Positions 59,172 to 64,000 of a stretch of DNA of 64,000 nt are shown here, in pieces. This DNA comes from an uncultured bacterium (GTDB lineage: Bacteria; Patescibacteriota; Minisyncoccia; UBA6257; GWB1-50-10), in NCBI GenBank assembly GCA_903827975.1, contig CAIKKG010000031.1, forward strand, positions 3,717 to 67,716, in the 5' to 3' direction. The position numbers were made by a program, and so were the translations under genes. Numbering within the stretch: the first letter of the stretch is position 1; each line of letters starts with the position of its first letter. The notes below the pieces were generated by a model that worked only from the letters and a program-made list of their open reading frames with translations, did no database searches and was not told the origin of the DNA.

Positions 59172-59229
59172 CTATATACTAATTATACCAATATCAAATA
59201 AAAATAAATCAAAATAAGAAGCTAAGCCC

Positions 59230-59640
59230 ACACAGCCACACGTAACTATGCGCAAAGACGTACAAAGATGTGCAAAGACTTGCAACAACGCGCAAAGATG
59301 TGCAAACAAATTTAACTATGCATAAAGATGTGAAAAGACGTGTAACCATGTGCAAAGATACACAAAGACTAGCAAACAAATTTAACTATGCATAAAGATG
59401 TGAAAAGACGTGCAAGACTTTAAAAGACTTGCAACAACGCGCAAAGATGTGCAAACAAATTTAACCATACGCAAAGATACACAAAGACTTGCAACCATGT
59501 GCAAAGATACACAAAGACTTGCAAACAAATTTAACTATGCGCAAAGACTTGCAAAAACGTGCAAAGATGTGAAAAGACGTGTAACCATGTGCAAAGATAC
59601 ACAAAGACTAGCAAACAAATTTAACTACTTACAAACAGAT
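59230..59640. repeat. Degenerate tandem array. ~70-90-bp units anchored by GCAAACAAATTTAAC, each built from ~11-bp subrepeats (RYGCAAAGAYR)
   Basis: Anchors at ~59303, 59371, 59450, 59521 and 59611; CAAAGA words recur with ~11-bp phase. Confidence 0.7.
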
Positions 59641-59652
59641 AGTGATAAAACA

Positions 59653-59684
59653 ATACTCCACTACAGTTAACTGTAGTGGAGTAT
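59653..59684. repeat. Perfect 32-bp palindrome ATACTCCACTACAGTT|AACTGTAGTGGAGTAT, downstream of the TrpR-like gene
   Basis: Exact reverse-complement symmetry; shares a 20-bp core with the palindrome at 60339-60378. Confidence 0.8.
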
Positions 59685-59827
59685 TTTAGAAATACTGGCT
59701 AATAAAAAGAAGGTGACTGTTTTTATATGCTGGGTGCAATCTACTAGTGCATTTTGCGCATAACAAACTATGGATACATCACTTAGTAAGGACTATTAAA
59801 TAAATATAAAAAGGTTTCCACCACACC

Positions 59828-60181
59828 CTAAAGTCTATGCTTGCCCTTATACCGCGGTGATCGTTTTCTAAACTCTCGTTCATATGGTGTTAATTGCTTA
59901 TGAACAGGAGCTGCTTTTATAAAATTATGTTTTACAAAACTAATAGTTACTGGGCTTACATCCAATATATCGCCAATAGCTTTATAGCTCAGCTTTTGTT
60001 TAATCAAAATCTTAATTGAGAGTCTTTTTTCAAGCATTATTATTTCGCTCTGTGTAAAGTATTTTTTCAAATTCGAGATAAAAACTTCTTGCGAGTCTGA
60101 ATTTTTCACCTCACTTAAAAAAGTGTTCCAGGCGTCTGTCTGTATTTTTTTATCTAGATATTTTTTACTTATATTTACCAT
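59828..60181 (-). CDS. TrpR/YerC-YecD-like small HTH DNA-binding protein
   Basis: 'LEKRLSIKILIKQKLSYKAIGDILDVSPVTISFVK' matches the TrpR-like YerC/YecD HTH. Confidence 0.55.
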   Translation of the reverse strand: MVNISKKYLDKKIQTDAWNTFLSEVKNSDSQEVFISNLKKYFTQSEIIMLEKRLSIKILIKQKLSYKAIGDILDVSPVTISFVKHNFIKAAPVHKQLTPYEREFRKRSPRYKGKHRL

Positions 60182-60187
60182 ATTATC

Positions 60188-60266
60188 GATTACTAAAATT
60201 TACCATTGTATTACTTAAATATCATTACAAGTTTATTACTTACTAAAATTTACCCTTGTATTGCTT
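60188..60266. repeat. Two 28-bp direct repeats (TTACTAAAATTTACCMTTGTATTRCTTA) in the promoter region of the TrpR-like gene
   Basis: Copies at 60188-60215 and 60239-60266 (2 mismatches). Confidence 0.7.
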
Positions 60267-60338
60267 ACACACTCTTACGGTTGCATCACCTACTCATACC
60301 TACAACTTCATTTTTATGTGTAAGGAGTAACTTAATTA

Positions 60339-60378
60339 TACCAGATGGCACTACAGTTAACTGTAGTGCCATCTGGTA
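60339..60378. repeat. Perfect 40-bp palindrome TACCAGATGGCACTACAGTT|AACTGTAGTGCCATCTGGTA, upstream of the TrpR-like gene
   Basis: Exact symmetry; core CACTACAGTTAACTGTAGTG is identical to the 59653-59684 palindrome; the outer arms differ but remain self-complementary. Confidence 0.8.
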
Positions 60379-60415
60379 TACACCAATACTTGTGTTTTGG
60401 TTGTTGCTTATTAGT

Positions 60416-60690
60416 TGTGATTATATATATTCAGTAGTTATGAATTAGTGGTTGTTAGTTATTAATTGTGAGTTAAGAGTTATTGATTATTAGCTGTGAG
60501 TTAAGAGTTATTAATTGCGAGTTAAAGATCATTGATTGTTAGTTGCGAGCTAATGGTTATTGGTTGTGATTATATATATTCAGTAGTTATGAATTACTGG
60601 TTGCTAGTTATTAGTTGTGAGTTAAAGGTTAAAGGTTGTTAGTTGTGGGTTGTTAGTTGTGGGTTGTTAGTTCAATGTTGCTGCTTAAAA
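60416..60690. repeat. AT-rich minisatellite. ~45-bp direct repeat (GTGATTATATATATTCAGTAGTTATGAATTA..) at 60416 and 60569, plus GTTGTTAGTTGTGGG and GTTATTAATTGTGAGTTAAGA subrepeats
   Basis: Direct inspection of the non-coding region between the TrpR-like gene and the giant surface-protein gene. Confidence 0.65.
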
Positions 60691-60725
60691 AATAATCCCC
60701 GCTTTTGCGGGGAGTATTTTTTTAC
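60690..60725. terminator. Bidirectional terminator at the 3' end of the giant surface-protein gene
   Basis: CCCCGC-tttt-GCGGGG flanked by A- and T-runs. Confidence 0.7.
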
Positions 60726-63700
60726 TTTATCAACTTGTCCAGATTGAATCCTTCTGTTGTGTCGGTATCTGCGCGACGATTGCCAAATGAATCATGGTCG
60801 AATCGTGGAGCGGTAAGACGATAAGAGATTTCTAGTGTTTTACTAGCACTCTTTGTGTCCTGCTTTGCATAAACAATAATCTTTCCATCCTTCTTCTCGT
60901 ACCAGGTGCGTCCGTCGAAGTTCGGCGAGACTAGAACAGTTACATTATCCAATCCCTCGTTTGCTAGATTTGTTGTTTTTGCGAATAGCCACAAATCAGA
61001 TGCCTCTGGTGAATTTTTCAAATCAAGTACCGCGGAACATTTATCGCCCAAGACCTGACATTTAACATTACCGGTCGCCTCTTCTTTTACACCAGACATA
61101 CTAGGCACATAAGTTGCATACTTCTTTCCATCAATTGTGTACGGTGGGTCAACGGTTCCGACATCAATCTTTCCTGCGCCACCTCCGACAGTGATAGTTC
61201 CTGCTGTCTGGAGAATGTTAATACGAGAAGTATTGTTAAAGTCCATGTAATATGCGGCATCATTCCAGTCAAACATATACTGAGGACGCACATCTACGAT
61301 ATATGCCTGATCAACATAATAAAGTTGGTTTAAGCGGCTTGAGCCAGCAGGATCAAGATAGAAAGCAGTGTTATCCTTGTCATAATATAAAGGCGCCTGC
61401 ATATTATCTCTCGCGCGGATACTTCCTGAAATTGCGGCTAGGAAGGTTCCGTTTTCCATTACGAGTAAACCATGTGAGTTTAAGTTAGACGCAACACCAC
61501 CAGCATTCGGATGAGACCACGCAAGTCCATAAAGACTTCCTGTTGTTGAGCCATCTGCTGGAAGCATGTATGAACTATCCATTGCAAACACAGCCTGATA
61601 TCTGGTTGATGTATATGTTCCAACTACACCAATTCCATAATTATTAAACTTCAAATTTCCAGACATTGTGTCGCCAGATTTCAAAACGTAATTCGATAAA
61701 GATCCAGTTGCATATCCGCAGTTATTAGAGTTATCACACACCGTACGCCAACCCTGCCAGCCGGAATTATATCTTCTAAAATAAAGTTGATCATCCCACA
61801 TATTCTGCACAATTTGGAACCCATACGCCTGATCACCTGGATGAGAGCCAACAGAAATACCATTTGAATAACAGGCGCCACTTCCGTTATTTGCACAACC
61901 AGTATTCCACGAATAAAAAGGTCTTAGTCCTGTACCAGGATGAGAATTGTCAGGGTTTGAAGAATATCCATTTACCTTATCAGCTGTGCTAGAGTTACCG
62001 GCAGAATTTGCGTAGCCCACGCTCAATGAAGTGCGAGCCGCTAGATATGAACTTCCATTTGAATCAGCACCCCAAAGATATGTTGGACTATTACTTGCAT
62101 TTGACCATGCGAAATGCTGACTATCTACGGTGTCGGCATTGCCAGCGCTATCGGCATATGGACGATATGTGTCTGAATATATTCTGTACCAAGAATTCCA
62201 GGTATTATTATCACCATTTTTTGTTCTATACGAAAAGCCAGTTCCACCGCCATAATTTGCATTAAGCTCAAGGTCATAATTGCTAGAATTAAATCTAACC
62301 ACTGGACCAGTCCAAGGAGCTCCAACTGAATATGTAAATCCAGACCTGTTTGCCCCCATCCAGTTTGCATCAAGCGTGAATCCTTCATACTGAAAGAAAC
62401 TTGAAGCGTGCATACTATCAACAGTATCCGCATTCGATACCGTACCGCTTAATGTTCCTGAAACAGTAAGATTGTTTAAGCGTGATGTTCCATTTGGATC
62501 TAAATAATAGGCGGTATCCTGTCTATCATAAAGAATGTTTGGCCTAATATCATTTAAATAGGAAACGCTATTTGGATCTACATAATAACTAGTATCTGCA
62601 GCATCATAAATTACGCCTGGCACTAGGATACCATTTGCAGCATTTCCAAGAGTTAGCTGGCCCGCATCTTTCTGAATGTAGAGCATGTTACAGCATCCTC
62701 CAGCATATGTAGCACGAGCAGCCCACTGATTATCAATATATGACTGAATTGAATTCGTGTTATCTCCGTTTATCTGCCCAATCACAATTCCATCTACGTT
62801 ATTAAGTGGGGTAGAAACATCTAGCGTTCCCCTTGGCACGTTCGTACCAATACCGACATTGCCACTATTATCAATAACCATCTTCTGGTTGAATGTTGTT
62901 CCGTTATAAGTTCCAAAGGTAATCTTACCCATTCCGCCATAGTTCGATGTGTAAATGGACATTTCATAAGGACCACCTCCCATGTCAGTTCCTAATCCCA
63001 TATATGCATTCGCATCTGCATCAAGACCAAAAAGCTGGAGACGTGGAGATCCCGCATAACCGCCACCAATCATCATTGCTGGAGCATTACTTAATTTTTG
63101 AACCTGGAATTTATAAGTAGGTGCTGTCGTGCCAATACCAACATTGCCATCTGTTCCAAACCAAGCACTGAATGTACCGCAACTTGCTGTTGCACAAATC
63201 TTTGTTGGTCCGGGGCGACGATAATTAATTTCCAAAGTATCGCCAGAAACACCTGAATTAATTGTATCCGCATATACGTCCCTCCCCACGAAGCCGTACG
63301 CATTATCAGAAACGTAATAATAATTAGGTGCATATATGTTTCCATTCGTCTCAATATTCGTTTGATTTGAGCTACCAAAGTATGCACCGCCGTAATGATA
63401 TACTCTGTACCAATTTTCGATTGAACTGTTAAGATTGATTCTCATATTTTCATTTCCGGCCACTGAGCGGAAATGAAATGCGGAGTTGTTATCAAAATAC
63501 ATACCACCAGCATCTGCTCTAAGATGCATATTACCTCCATCATATGGCCTGAACCAGTTACCAGCAGCAGCAGTTGAATACATATAACCAGTCGTCGACA
63601 TCGCGATATTAGAATTACCACCCATTGTAAGAGAGCCGGTCATCGTGTCGCCCGCTTTCAATACATAATTTGAACCAACTGCATATCCGCAGTTATTTCC

Positions 63701-64000
63701 TGAGTCACATACTGTGTATGTTCCACGTTGATACATTGTTCCAGATGCTTGGACATCTCCAGCTACGGTGAGCTTATATCCAGGTGCCGTTGTACCAATG
63801 CCGACATTTCCGGCTGGGGTAATACGTACCTTTTCTGTGCTATCTGTATAAAATTGCAATGTTCCATCGGCTGATGAGCCCATTCCACCATCAGTATCTC
63901 CAGGGCCTGAGAAAATAAAACCTCCGGCCTGTCCGCCTGGTGAACCAGCGCTTGCACGGAAATATGTTGCCTGCGCAACATTGAAGTTCGAAGTGCCATT
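60722..64000 (-). CDS. Giant Gly/Asn/Tyr/Ser/Thr-rich secreted surface protein with repeated 'GNVGIGTxxP' tail-fibre-like motifs; 5' end lies beyond the window
   Basis: The frame stays open from 63884 to 64000 with the same composition, so the M at 63883 is internal; motifs 'GNVGIGTTAPGYKL', 'GNVGIGTTAPTYKF', 'GNVGIGTNVPRGTL'. Confidence 0.6.
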   Translation of the reverse strand, partial: NGTSNFNVAQATYFRASAGSPGGQAGGFIFSGPGDTDGGMGSSADGTLQFYTDSTEKVRITPAGNVGIGTTAPGYKLTVAGDVQASGTMYQRGTYTVCDSGNNCGYAVGSNYVLKAGDTMTGSLTMGGNSNIAMSTTGYMYSTAAAGNWFRPYDGGNMHLRADAGGMYFDNNSAFHFRSVAGNENMRINLNSSIENWYRVYHYGGAYFGSSNQTNIETNGNIYAPNYYYVSDNAYGFVGRDVYADTINSGVSGDTLEINYRRPGPTKICATASCGTFSAWFGTDGNVGIGTTAPTYKFQVQKLSNAPAMMIGGGYAGSPRLQLFGLDADANAYMGLGTDMGGGPYEMSIYTSNYGGMGKITFGTYNGTTFNQKMVIDNSGNVGIGTNVPRGTLDVSTPLNNVDGIVIGQINGDNTNSIQSYIDNQWAARATYAGGCCNMLYIQKDAGQLTLGNAANGILVPGVIYDAADTSYYVDPNSVSYLNDIRPNILYDRQDTAYYLDPNGTSRLNNLTVSGTLSGTVSNADTVDSMHASSFFQYEGFTLDANWMGANRSGFTYSVGAPWTGPVVRFNSSNYDLELNANYGGGTGFSYRTKNGDNNTWNSWYRIYSDTYRPYADSAGNADTVDSQHFAWSNASNSPTYLWGADSNGSSYLAARTSLSVGYANSAGNSSTADKVNGYSSNPDNSHPGTGLRPFYSWNTGCANNGSGACYSNGISVGSHPGDQAYGFQIVQNMWDDQLYFRRYNSGWQGWRTVCDNSNNCGYATGSLSNYVLKSGDTMSGNLKFNNYGIGVVGTYTSTRYQAVFAMDSSYMLPADGSTTGSLYGLAWSHPNAGGVASNLNSHGLLVMENGTFLAAISGSIRARDNMQAPLYYDKDNTAFYLDPAGSSRLNQLYYVDQAYIVDVRPQYMFDWNDAAYYMDFNNTSRINILQTAGTITVGGGAGKIDVGTVDPPYTIDGKKYATYVPSMSGVKEEATGNVKCQVLGDKCSAVLDLKNSPEASDLWLFAKTTNLANEGLDNVTVLVSPNFDGRTWYEKKDGKIIVYAKQDTKSASKTLEISYRLTAPRFDHDSFGNRRADTDTTEGFNLDKLIK

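What the first reader, a model, noticed from the sequence alone, without database searches (positions are those of the whole stretch)
59653..60378. Two perfect palindromes with an identical 20-bp core and covarying outer arms bracket the TrpR-like gene
The two palindromes are ATACTCCACTACAGTT|AACTGTAGTGGAGTAT and TACCAGATGGCACTACAGTT|AACTGTAGTGCCATCTGGTA. They share the core CACTACAGTTAACTGTAGTG, centred on a GTTAAC HpaI site. Their outer arms differ in sequence, yet each stays perfectly self-complementary. Maintenance of symmetry despite divergence implies selection on a hairpin or cruciform, or on a dimeric protein-binding site. One sits ~150 nt downstream and the other ~155 nt upstream of the gene. 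Candidate roles are paired operators, terminator/insulator hairpins of one family, or REP-like elements.
Basis: seen in the sequence. Interest (0 to 1): 0.55.

Follow-up and report, generated by a model that had tools for sequence, protein, structure and literature searches.

The report
Paired operators bracketing a TrpR-like repressor gene
The two palindromes are most likely the DNA binding sites of the small TrpR/HisR-family repressor encoded between them, one on its own promoter and one just after its stop codon; this site-gene-site layout recurs in every related locus examined in CPR (Parcubacteria-type) bacteria, so it is a tidy but fairly ordinary self-regulating gene.

Summary
P1 (59652-59685, 34 bp) and P2 (60337-60380, 44 bp) are perfect palindromes. 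They share the 20-bp core CACTACAGTTAACTGTAGTG, which occurs nowhere else in the 64-kb window, and they are its two longest palindromes.

In all 23 distinct orthologous loci fetched, the 117-aa TrpR-family gene has a palindrome of this type upstream. In about 21 of 23 an extended -10 box (TGnTATAAT-like) starts 17-21 nt after the palindrome centre. Every locus with enough downstream sequence has a second copy 5-210 nt after the stop.

Cores differ between genomes by symmetric changes but are the same, or differ at no more than 3 positions, among the copies of one genome. Two protein residues track operator bases:
- Residue 67 (aligns with E. coli TrpR Arg69) is K or R, matching A or G at operator position 9.
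- Asn78 occurs only with T5/A6.

The core has the 20-bp geometry of published TrpR/HisR motifs.

Best reading: these are paired operators of an autoregulated repressor, and the downstream copy often doubles as a terminator-like hairpin. A REP-like family is not supported. Still open: the perfectly symmetric outer arms, the purpose of the downstream copy, and single exact-core copies at unrelated CPR loci.

Verdict: a new variant of a known kind, of moderate interest.

The parts
60337..60380 (.). P2, the upstream operator: a 44-bp perfect palindrome with its centre between 60358 and 60359. It overlaps the promoter of the TrpR-like gene.
   Evidence: Equivalent upstream palindromes are present in all 23 orthologous loci.
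60349..60368 (.). The 20-bp core CACTACAGTTAACTGTAGTG within P2, the proposed contact surface for a TrpR-like dimer.
   Evidence: It has the same 20-bp palindromic geometry as the published HisR motif cacTTTAnnnnnnTAAAgtg (10 of 14 specified positions match) and shares the GTnnAC centre of the TrpR motif (PMC9413887).
60335..60343 (-). Extended -10 promoter element TGGTATAAT. The hexamer runs 60340 to 60335 on the minus strand and starts 19 nt from the P2 centre, which puts the operator centre near -30.
   Evidence: Read from the sequence. A TGn plus TATAAT-like hexamer (at least 5 of 6) lies at +17 to +21 in the 20 loci scored automatically; 19 of the 20 carry the TG. L008 fits by eye.
59828..60181 (-). 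Gene for the 117-aa TrpR/HisR(YerC)-like HTH regulator, deposited at NCBI as MCX6788280.1, 'Trp family transcriptional regulator', Candidatus Jorgensenbacteria.
   Evidence: Pfam PF01371 at 32.6 bits against a 27-bit cut-off. Closest PDB sequences are 3KOR, 3G1C and 3FRW, then E. coli TrpR. The top 40 Foldseek hits for the AF2 model are all TrpR or TrpR-like.
59652..59685 (.). P1, the downstream operator copy: a 34-bp perfect palindrome containing the core at 59659-59678. On the gene strand it also forms a terminator-like hairpin.
   Evidence: The terminator scan gives a 15-pair stem. The RNA fold is -24.2 kcal/mol with z = -5.5. Downstream copies exist in every orthologous locus that has enough downstream flank.
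59642..59651 (-). T-rich tail (GTTTTATCAC on the minus strand) that follows the P1 hairpin.
60184..60334 (-). Long (about 147 nt) predicted leader between the promoter and the ATG. It contains four 25-bp direct repeats that duplicate the first codons of the gene (ATGGTAAAT). The leader is specific to this lineage; orthologues have 28-90 nt between the operator centre and the ATG.
   Evidence: (family D3). Whether it has any role is unknown.

Best explanation
The two palindromes are operators of the TrpR/HisR-family repressor encoded between them.

Shown by comparison:
- The inner 20-24 bp is a symmetric site of the type bound by TrpR-family dimers.
- The upstream copy (P2) sits immediately upstream of an extended -10 promoter (TGGTATAAT), with its centre near -30.
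- The downstream copy (P1) carries the same core just after the gene.

Inferred:
- Bound protein at P2 would occlude RNA polymerase and repress the regulator's own transcription, probably in response to an unknown small-molecule co-repressor.
- P1 is a second operator. It probably cooperates with P2 through a protein-bridged DNA loop of about 690 bp, acts as a roadblock, or both.
- Because P1 is transcribed, it also forms a hairpin followed by a T-rich tail that ends or insulates the transcript.
- The site-specific, perfectly symmetric outer arms lie beyond the likely protein footprint. They reflect hairpin or cruciform selection, or templated symmetrisation of quasi-palindromes.
For: 1. Layout. 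In all 23 distinct orthologous loci (identity to the window protein ranges from 100% in the conspecific contig L015 down to 33%, in different gene neighbourhoods) a palindrome of this family lies upstream of the gene. Every locus with enough downstream flank has at least one more copy 5-210 nt after the stop.

2. Promoter spacing. A TATAAT-like hexamer (at least 5 of 6) starts +17 to +21 nt from the upstream palindrome centre in all 20 loci scored automatically, preceded by TG in 19 of them. L008 fits by eye.

3. Concerted change. Cores differ between genomes by symmetric changes but are the same, or differ at no more than 3 positions, among the 2-4 copies of one genome. The inner ten positions are almost 100% symmetric, 13 of 16 pairs carry double changes, and 0 of 500 shuffles reach the observed score.

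4. Motif. The core has the 20-bp palindromic geometry published for TrpR and HisR (cacTTTAnnnnnnTAAAgtg and TGTAcTnGTnnACnAgTACA; PMC9413887). The invariant positions A4, T7 and C8 coincide with conserved HisR positions.

5. Protein-DNA covariation.
- Residue 67 aligns, in my own gapless alignment, with TrpR Arg69, a listed DNA-contact residue (PMC9413887).
- It is R in 14 loci, all with G at operator position 9.
- It is K in 9 loci, 8 of them with A9 (Fisher p = 1.8e-5).
- The K/R switches are scattered over a neighbour-joining tree, suggesting about 5 independent events.
- Six of the loci (L033-L040) were fetched afterwards as a prediction test: 4 fit, 1 was mixed and 1 failed.
- Asn78 (aligned with TrpR Ala80) occurs only with T5/A6: 5 of 5 loci against 0 of 18 (p = 3e-5; p computed, counts tallied by hand).

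6. The protein is a TrpR-family member.

7. Autoregulation is documented for trpR and for hisR in 183 genomes (PMC9413887).

8. The upstream neighbour has its own classic terminator (60696-60713), so P2 is not needed to terminate it. P1 scores as a terminator on the gene strand.

9. In L013, L025 and L042 the downstream copy faces a convergent gene, so it is not the operator of a next promoter.
Against: - There is no binding, transcript or structural experiment; everything is comparative.
- The symmetry cannot by itself separate a dimeric protein site from a hairpin.
- Outer arms of up to 22 nt are perfectly symmetric well beyond a TrpR-type footprint, at upstream sites as well as downstream ones. 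An operator does not need this.
- Only about half of the downstream copies have a T-rich tail, so the terminator role is not general.
- The K67/A9 rule has one exception (L040) and one mixed locus (L038).
- No further targets were found in 64 + 20 + 20 kb, so the regulator has no visible regulon apart from itself.
- The exact core also occurs singly at unrelated CPR loci and in one viral contig, with no TrpR-like gene in the fetched fragments of the seven genomic loci, often as an A-run/T-run hairpin.
- The alignment of residue 67 to TrpR Arg69 is a gapless sequence alignment. PMC9413887 equates Arg69 with the neighbouring conserved Tyr in HisR, so the contact could be off by one residue.
Confidence: 0.75

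Rival explanations
1. The palindromes are only RNA-level intrinsic terminators or insulator hairpins of one sequence family, which isolate an independently transcribed small gene. Their identity within a genome comes from gene conversion, not from a binding protein.
For: - P1 scores as a terminator, and both palindromes fold very stably.
- The outer arms are perfectly paired beyond any likely footprint.
- The same 20-bp core flanked by A and T runs lies at gene 3' ends in other CPR genomes and in a viral contig.
- L021 has two extra copies after the 3' end of an opposite-strand gene.
Against: - The central 4-6 nt, which would form the hairpin loop, are themselves palindromic in nearly all sites. 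A hairpin does not require this.
- The upstream copy keeps a fixed +17 to +21 spacing to an extended -10 box and lies outside its own transcript.
- The upstream genes in the window and in L008 have separate classic terminators.
- About half of the downstream copies lack a T-rich tail.
- There is no excess of G-T wobble among the non-paired positions (my tally of the per-pair counts).
- Two protein residues covary with operator bases, which a protein-independent hairpin cannot explain.
Confidence: 0.1
2. The palindromes are a REP-like or miniature mobile palindromic element, or the recombination ends of a mobile cassette that carries the HTH gene.
For: - The site-gene-site module is found in different gene neighbourhoods.
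- The exact core occurs at unrelated loci in other CPR genomes.
- The protein gives weak matches to transposase-type HTH domains: HTH_38 at 26.4 bits (just under the 27-bit cut-off) and HTH_23.
Against: - There are only two copies in 64 kb, and none in a further 40 kb around two orthologues.
- There are 7 exact hits in 185,579 species genomes, at most two per genome.
- I saw no target-site duplication next to the palindromes in the sequence.
- No transposase, RAYT or integrase gene was recognised among the immediate neighbours that were annotated.
- Protein and sites have diverged together (33-66% protein identity outside the conspecific contig), which fits vertical descent and not recent mobility.
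Confidence: 0.04
3. The palindromes are CIRCE-like operators of the heat-shock repressor HrcA or of another global factor, and not of the adjacent protein.
For: - The GCACT...AGTGC ends resemble CIRCE (TTAGCACTC-N9-GAGTGCTAA, recalled from memory).
- Two of the exact-core hits in other genomes lie upstream of hrcA-grpE-dnaK (L006) and between dnaK and dnaJ (L007).
Against: - The spacing differs: 12 nt between GCACT and AGTGC here, against 11 in CIRCE.
- The TTAG/CTAA outer bases are absent.
- The sites bracket the TrpR-like gene in 23 of 23 loci and not chaperone genes.
- The core changes in step with residues of the TrpR-like protein.
Confidence: 0.02

Closest known systems
HisR (YerC) histidine repressor of Firmicutes, TrpR family (PMC9413887)
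   Same: It is a small TrpR-fold HTH protein, and the closest PDB sequences (3KOR, 3G1C) belong to this branch. Its operator is a 20-bp palindrome with cacT...Agtg ends and conserved A4, T7 and C8. Its gene often has its own operator upstream, indicating autoregulation.
   Different: - The window protein scores below the curated YerC/YecD cut-off (20 bits against 42.2).
- No histidine genes were recognised near it: the window neighbours are an LTD protein and a 1053-aa protein with no Pfam match, and none appear among the genes called around L041 and L042.
- The ligand is unknown.
- A second operator copy downstream of the gene and perfectly symmetric arms of up to 22 nt are not mentioned in the passages of the HisR paper I read.
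E. coli TrpR and its operators (trpEDCBA, aroH, trpR)
   Same: The fold is the same and the gene is autoregulated by an operator overlapping its own promoter. The published consensus is a 20-bp palindrome with a GTnnAC centre and G at position 9. The residue aligned with the DNA-contacting Arg69 tracks the base at position 9. From memory, the trp operator centre AGTTAACT is identical to the centre here.
   Different: - The outer half-site differs: CACT/CGCT at positions 7-10 here, against GTAC in TrpR.
- The equivalog model is not met (16.6 bits against 67.25).
- To my knowledge E. coli trpR has a single upstream operator and no copy after the gene.
- The co-repressor is unknown. CPR bacteria generally lack tryptophan synthesis (general knowledge).
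Repressor genes flanked by two operator sets that loop (lambda cI between OL and OR; gal OE/OI; lac O1/O2)
   Same: There are two copies of one operator, several hundred bp apart, with the regulated promoter at one of them. As with lambda cI, the regulator gene lies between the two.
   Different: Looping is not shown here. TrpR-family proteins are not known to form tetramers that bridge distant sites. Here the distal site coincides with the gene's 3' end and can fold as a terminator.
Intrinsic (factor-independent) terminators
   Same: P1, and about half of the downstream copies elsewhere, are a stable hairpin followed by a T-rich tail at a gene's 3' end.
   Different: The stem is long and AT-rich and the loop is palindromic. 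The sequence is identical to the promoter operator and changes in step with the protein. P2 and many downstream copies have no T tract.

Membership tests
TrpR family transcription factors (Pfam PF01371) | Sequence match to the Trp_repressor model above Pfam's gathering score | tested here: met
   The window protein scores 32.6 bits against a 27-bit cut-off. All 18 aligned orthologues match the model at E <= 0.01, with a best E of 1.5e-13.
TrpR family transcription factors (Pfam PF01371) | All-helical TrpR fold with the HTH formed by helices D and E | tested here: met
   The AF2 model (pLDDT 75) has six helices. The top 40 Foldseek PDB hits are all TrpR or TrpR-like, with probabilities from 0.85 to 1.0 and TM-scores of 0.45-0.58. 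The profile search of PDB sequences gives 3KOR, 3G1C, 3FRW and TrpR.
TrpR family transcription factors (Pfam PF01371) | Binds a roughly 20-bp palindromic operator as a dimer | tested here: inconclusive
   A 20-24 bp symmetric core is conserved next to the gene in 23 loci and covaries with two HTH residues. No binding assay is possible with these tools.
TrpR family transcription factors (Pfam PF01371) | Amino-acid co-repressor required for DNA binding | not testable with these tools
   The ligand is unknown.
HisR / YerC-YecD subfamily (TIGR02531) | Score above the curated NCBIfam cut-off | tested here: not met
   20.0 bits against a 42.2-bit cut-off.
HisR / YerC-YecD subfamily (TIGR02531) | Operator consensus cacTTTAnnnnnnTAAAgtg | tested here: inconclusive
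   The window core matches 10 of 14 specified positions. The cores of L017 and L041 match 12 of 14.
HisR / YerC-YecD subfamily (TIGR02531) | Controls histidine biosynthesis or uptake genes | tested here: not met
   No his or histidine-transport genes were recognised next to the sites in the window, L041 or L042. No other sites were found in 64 + 40 kb.
TrpR equivalog (TIGR01321) | Score above the curated cut-off | tested here: not met
   16.6 bits against a 67.25-bit cut-off.
Intrinsic terminator | Stable stem-loop followed directly by a T/U tract on the transcribed strand | tested here: met
   This holds for P1 only: a 15-pair stem plus GTTTTATCAC. P2 is followed by TAATTAAG and is not called. 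Seven of the 17 downstream copies scored have at least 5 T in the next 10 nt.
REP/BIME-type repeated extragenic palindromes | Tens to hundreds of copies per genome, dispersed between unrelated genes | tested here: not met
   There are 2 copies in 64 kb at up to 3 mismatches, only the 2 flanking copies in each 20-kb locus of two orthologues, and 7 exact hits in 185,579 genomes.
CIRCE / HrcA operator | TTAGCACTC-N9-GAGTGCTAA upstream of chaperone operons | tested here: not met
   The spacing is off by one and the outer TTAG/CTAA bases are absent (sequence). The sites bracket the TrpR-like gene and not chaperone genes. The CIRCE consensus is recalled from memory.
Known RNA families (Rfam 15) | Match at the gathering score | tested here: not met
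   Only generic hairpin matches to miRNA models were found, far below their gathering scores.

The most novel reading that the evidence does not exclude
The regulator and its two perfect palindromes form a self-contained, insulated module whose only high-affinity targets are its own flanks. The protein bridges the two sites into a loop around its own gene, or stabilises or competes with cruciform or hairpin extrusion. One sequence then serves as promoter operator, protein roadblock and conditional terminator. The exact symmetry of the arms is kept by a cruciform- or hairpin-templated correction process and not by base-by-base selection.
Probability: 0.2. Interest if true: 0.6.

Novelty: new variant of a known kind. 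Interest (0 to 1): 0.4.

Why it matters
- As far as I know, transcription control in CPR/Patescibacteria is almost unexplored. Two of my literature searches dealt with this: one for TrpR-family regulators in CPR and one for TrpR-operator contacts; neither found a paper on these regulators in CPR.
- This locus gives a concrete regulator-operator pair with a readable specificity code (K/R67 with A/G9; N78 with T5/A6). It could be tested with a gel shift and might be reused as a genetic switch in these organisms.
- It gives 20-odd aligned examples of a CPR promoter type: an extended -10 box with, in the window and L008, no recognisable -35.
- It documents an unusual, strictly conserved arrangement in which an operator copy sits at the gene's 3' end.
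- In practice, long perfect palindromes like these may break assemblies and mislead terminator or repeat annotation.

Tried and rejected
- **DNA uptake sequence:** the 10-nt half-site occurs only inside the two palindromes, and no 10-mer is enriched.
- **REP-like family:** copy number is far too low.
- **CIRCE:** the spacing and outer bases do not fit.
- **Integron attC or pdif-type cassette ends, and hairpin-telomere junctions:** considered from the cassette-like look. I dropped them because the protein is a plain HTH, no recombinase was recognised among the annotated neighbours, and the sites are short perfect palindromes with different flanks.
- **Mobile IS-like unit:** no target-site duplication seen, no catalytic domain, and sites and protein diverge together.
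- **Known RNA families:** none.
- **Conserved synteny pointing to a regulated neighbour:**
  - The window's 1053-aa and LTD neighbours are conserved only in the conspecific contig L015.
  - In other loci the neighbours differ (rplU, rpmE, serS, UDG).
- **More operators in the window:** a relaxed motif (CACTNNANNNNNNTNNAGTG, 1 mismatch) gave only one extra hit, at chance level.
- **TrpR-like genes next to the seven exact-core hits in other genomes:** tblastn found none.
- **Relation between the flanking tandem arrays and the palindromes:** orthologous loci lack the arrays, so they are not part of the module.

Full report
**1. Observation**

The two palindromes are real and slightly longer than reported. 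P1 is 59652-59685 (34 bp, arms of 17) and P2 is 60337-60380 (44 bp, arms of 22).

They share the 20-bp core CACTACAGTTAACTGTAGTG. This core has no other match in the 64-kb window even at 3 mismatches, against 0 expected in shuffles. They are the two longest perfect palindromes in the window. The next longest are ordinary GC-stem/T-run terminators.

Between them lies a 117-aa ORF on the minus strand (59828-60181). It matches Pfam Trp_repressor above the gathering score. It is deposited as 'Trp family transcriptional regulator' of a Candidatus Jorgensenbacteria MAG, a CPR/Parcubacteria lineage.

**2. Comparative anatomy**

I collected orthologous loci three ways: from protein hits, from their contigs, and from a metagenome scan with a protein alignment. 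This gave 23 distinct loci. Identity to the window protein ranges from 100% (the conspecific contig L015) down to 33%.

Every locus has a palindrome of the same family upstream of the gene. Every locus with enough downstream sequence has at least one more copy, 5-210 nt after the stop codon. Some loci have three or four copies (L025, L021).

Gene neighbourhoods differ:
- rplU in L013;
- rpmE in L014;
- convergent serS in L025 and L042;
- UDG in L041;
- a large protein in L008 that is not homologous to the window's large protein.

The sites therefore travel with the gene and not with its neighbours.

**3. The upstream copy is a promoter operator**

In all 20 loci scored automatically, a TATAAT-like hexamer (at least 5 of 6 matches) begins 17-21 nt after the palindrome centre. 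It is preceded by TG, the extended -10 signature, in 19 of them. L008 fits by eye (TGGTATACT at +19), L021 only weakly, and L014 is unclear.

In the window the element is TGGTATAAT, with the hexamer at 60340-60335 on the minus strand. It overlaps the end of P2, which puts the palindrome centre near -30, where a bound protein would block RNA polymerase. In the window and L008 I saw no convincing -35 hexamer.

The upstream neighbour (the 1053-aa gene) has its own classic terminator at 60696-60713, as does the upstream gene in L008. P2 is therefore not needed to end upstream transcripts.

**4. The sites match the TrpR/HisR operator type and covary with the protein**

PMC9413887 reports that TrpR-family regulators recognise 20-bp palindromes:
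- HisR/YerC: cacTTTAnnnnnnTAAAgtg
- TrpR: TGTAcTnGTnnACnAgTACA

It also reports that hisR and trpR are commonly autoregulated.

The window core matches the HisR consensus at 10 of 14 specified positions, and the cores of L017 and L041 match at 12 of 14. The centre GTnnAC is that of the TrpR motif. From memory, the E. coli trp operator centre AGTTAACT is identical to the centre here.

Across 31 sites:
- The invariant positions are T2, A4 and T7 counted from the centre, with T1 and C8 nearly invariant.
- The other positions change symmetrically between genomes: 13 of 16 pairs have double changes, and the covariation score is 0.569 against 0.219 in shuffles (0 of 500 as high).
- The copies within one genome keep the same core, differing at no more than 3 positions.

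Two HTH residues track operator bases.

Residue 67:
- It aligns, in my own gapless alignment, with TrpR Arg69, a listed DNA-contact residue.
- It is Arg in 14 loci, all with G at position 9.
- It is Lys in 9 loci, 8 of them with A at position 9 (Fisher p = 1.8e-5).
- The switches are interleaved on a neighbour-joining tree, suggesting about five independent events.
- Six of the loci were fetched afterwards as a test of this prediction: four fit, one was mixed (L038) and one failed (L040).

Residue 78:
- Asn78 (aligned with TrpR Ala80) occurs only with T5/A6: 5 of 5 loci against 0 of 18 (p = 3e-5).
- The counts were tallied by hand.

A protein-independent hairpin cannot explain these correlations. 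The caveats are that the tree is crude and that the alignment to Arg69 could be off by one residue.

**5. The downstream copy**

On the gene strand P1 is called as an intrinsic terminator, with a 15-pair stem followed by GTTTTATCAC. Its RNA fold is -24.2 kcal/mol with z = -5.5.

Elsewhere only about half of the downstream copies have a T-rich tail. In L013, L025 and L042 the copy faces a convergent gene, so it is not the operator of a following promoter.

I infer that it is a second operator, acting as a looping partner, a roadblock or both, and that it often also serves as a terminator hairpin. This step is not shown.

**6. The outer arms**

Beyond the roughly 20-24 bp that the copies of one genome share, arms extend by up to 12 more perfectly paired positions. 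The extensions have site-specific sequence and occur at upstream and downstream sites alike. Chance cannot give this, and a TrpR-type footprint does not need it.

The central 4-6 nt are also symmetric, which a hairpin loop does not need. By my tally of the per-pair counts, G-T wobble is not enriched among the non-paired positions. The symmetry therefore seems to act at the DNA level.

Selection for a hairpin or cruciform, and templated symmetrisation of quasi-palindromes (a known mutational process, cited from general knowledge), both remain possible.

**7.

- Only the two flanking copies exist in the 64-kb window, and only two in each of the 20-kb loci L041 and L042.
- The exact window core occurs in 7 stretches among 185,579 species genomes. 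Six are named as CPR (five Saccharibacteria contigs and one Paceibacterota); the seventh is an unnamed 876-kb uncultured bacterium. There are at most two hits per genome.
- It also occurs in one viral contig.
- The seven genomic hits have no TrpR-like gene in the fetched fragment.
- They lie between convergent genes, after gyrB or dnaK, upstream of hrcA, or inside coding sequence. Several look like A-run/T-run terminators.

This is far from a REP-like family. These scattered copies remain unexplained. They could be regulon sites of related regulators, an independent terminator hairpin, or partly chance among palindromic terminators.

**8. Verdict**

The finding is a TrpR/HisR-family repressor gene bracketed by two copies of its own operator. 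Autoregulation of this family is known. What appears to be new:
- the strictly conserved operator-gene-operator layout;
- the dual operator/terminator character of the distal copy;
- the exact extended symmetry;
- the occurrence in CPR bacteria, where no study of such regulators was found.

I rate it a new variant of a known kind, with moderate interest.

Noticed in passing
window 59195-59650 and 60400-60680: Two tandem-repeat arrays flank the module on its outer sides. The left array has periods of 10, 30 and 149 nt and is A/C-rich on the plus strand. The right array has periods of 7, 21, 28 and 149 nt and is G/T-rich on the plus strand. They are therefore inverted in composition and share a 149-nt higher-order period. 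In the conspecific contig L015 the left array is about 240 bp shorter and the right about 70-100 bp longer, while the rest is 97-99% identical. Orthologous loci in other genomes have no such arrays.
   Followed up: partly
window 60159-60283: Four 25-bp direct repeats lie in the leader of the TrpR-like gene. They are duplications of the gene's first codons (ATGGTAAAT...). One copy creates a 7-codon mini-ORF whose stop overlaps the real ATG (TAATATG).
   Followed up: partly
window 60722-63883 (minus strand): A 1053-aa protein with no Pfam match is mosaic and hypervariable between strains. It is 79-86% identical in protein to the L015 version, with unalignable segments, while the LTD, tRNA-binding and DsbD-like neighbours are 99.7-100% identical. 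It may be a surface protein under diversifying selection.
   Followed up: no
L001, L004, L005, L006, L007, L043: The exact 20-bp window core occurs singly at unrelated loci in Saccharibacteria and Paceibacterota MAGs and in one IMG/VR viral contig. It is often embedded in A-run/T-run bidirectional terminator-like palindromes, for example AAAAAACCAC-core-GTGGTTTTTT. L001 and L004 come from the same MAG and share a 26-bp core. L006 and L007 lie next to hrcA-grpE-dnaK and between dnaK and dnaJ.
   Followed up: partly
L042 7400-8740: The Brennerbacteria locus carries a reverse transcriptase (RVT_1) next to a bAvd gene, the signature of a diversity-generating retroelement, about 1.3 kb from the TrpR-like gene.
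   Followed up: no
L025 1336-1437 and 1990-2104; L021 245-345: The operator-promoter unit is tandemly duplicated (78-nt spacing) and the downstream copy is duplicated (86-nt spacing) in L025. L021 has two extra copies about 1 kb upstream, after the 3' end of an opposite-strand 225-aa gene that looked TPR-like by eye (not scanned). The sites therefore duplicate locally.
   Followed up: partly
window 60696-60713: A classic bidirectional terminator (TCCCCGCAAAAGCGGGGA flanked by A and T runs) lies directly after the stop of the 1053-aa gene. This shows what ordinary terminators look like in this genome.
   Followed up: yes
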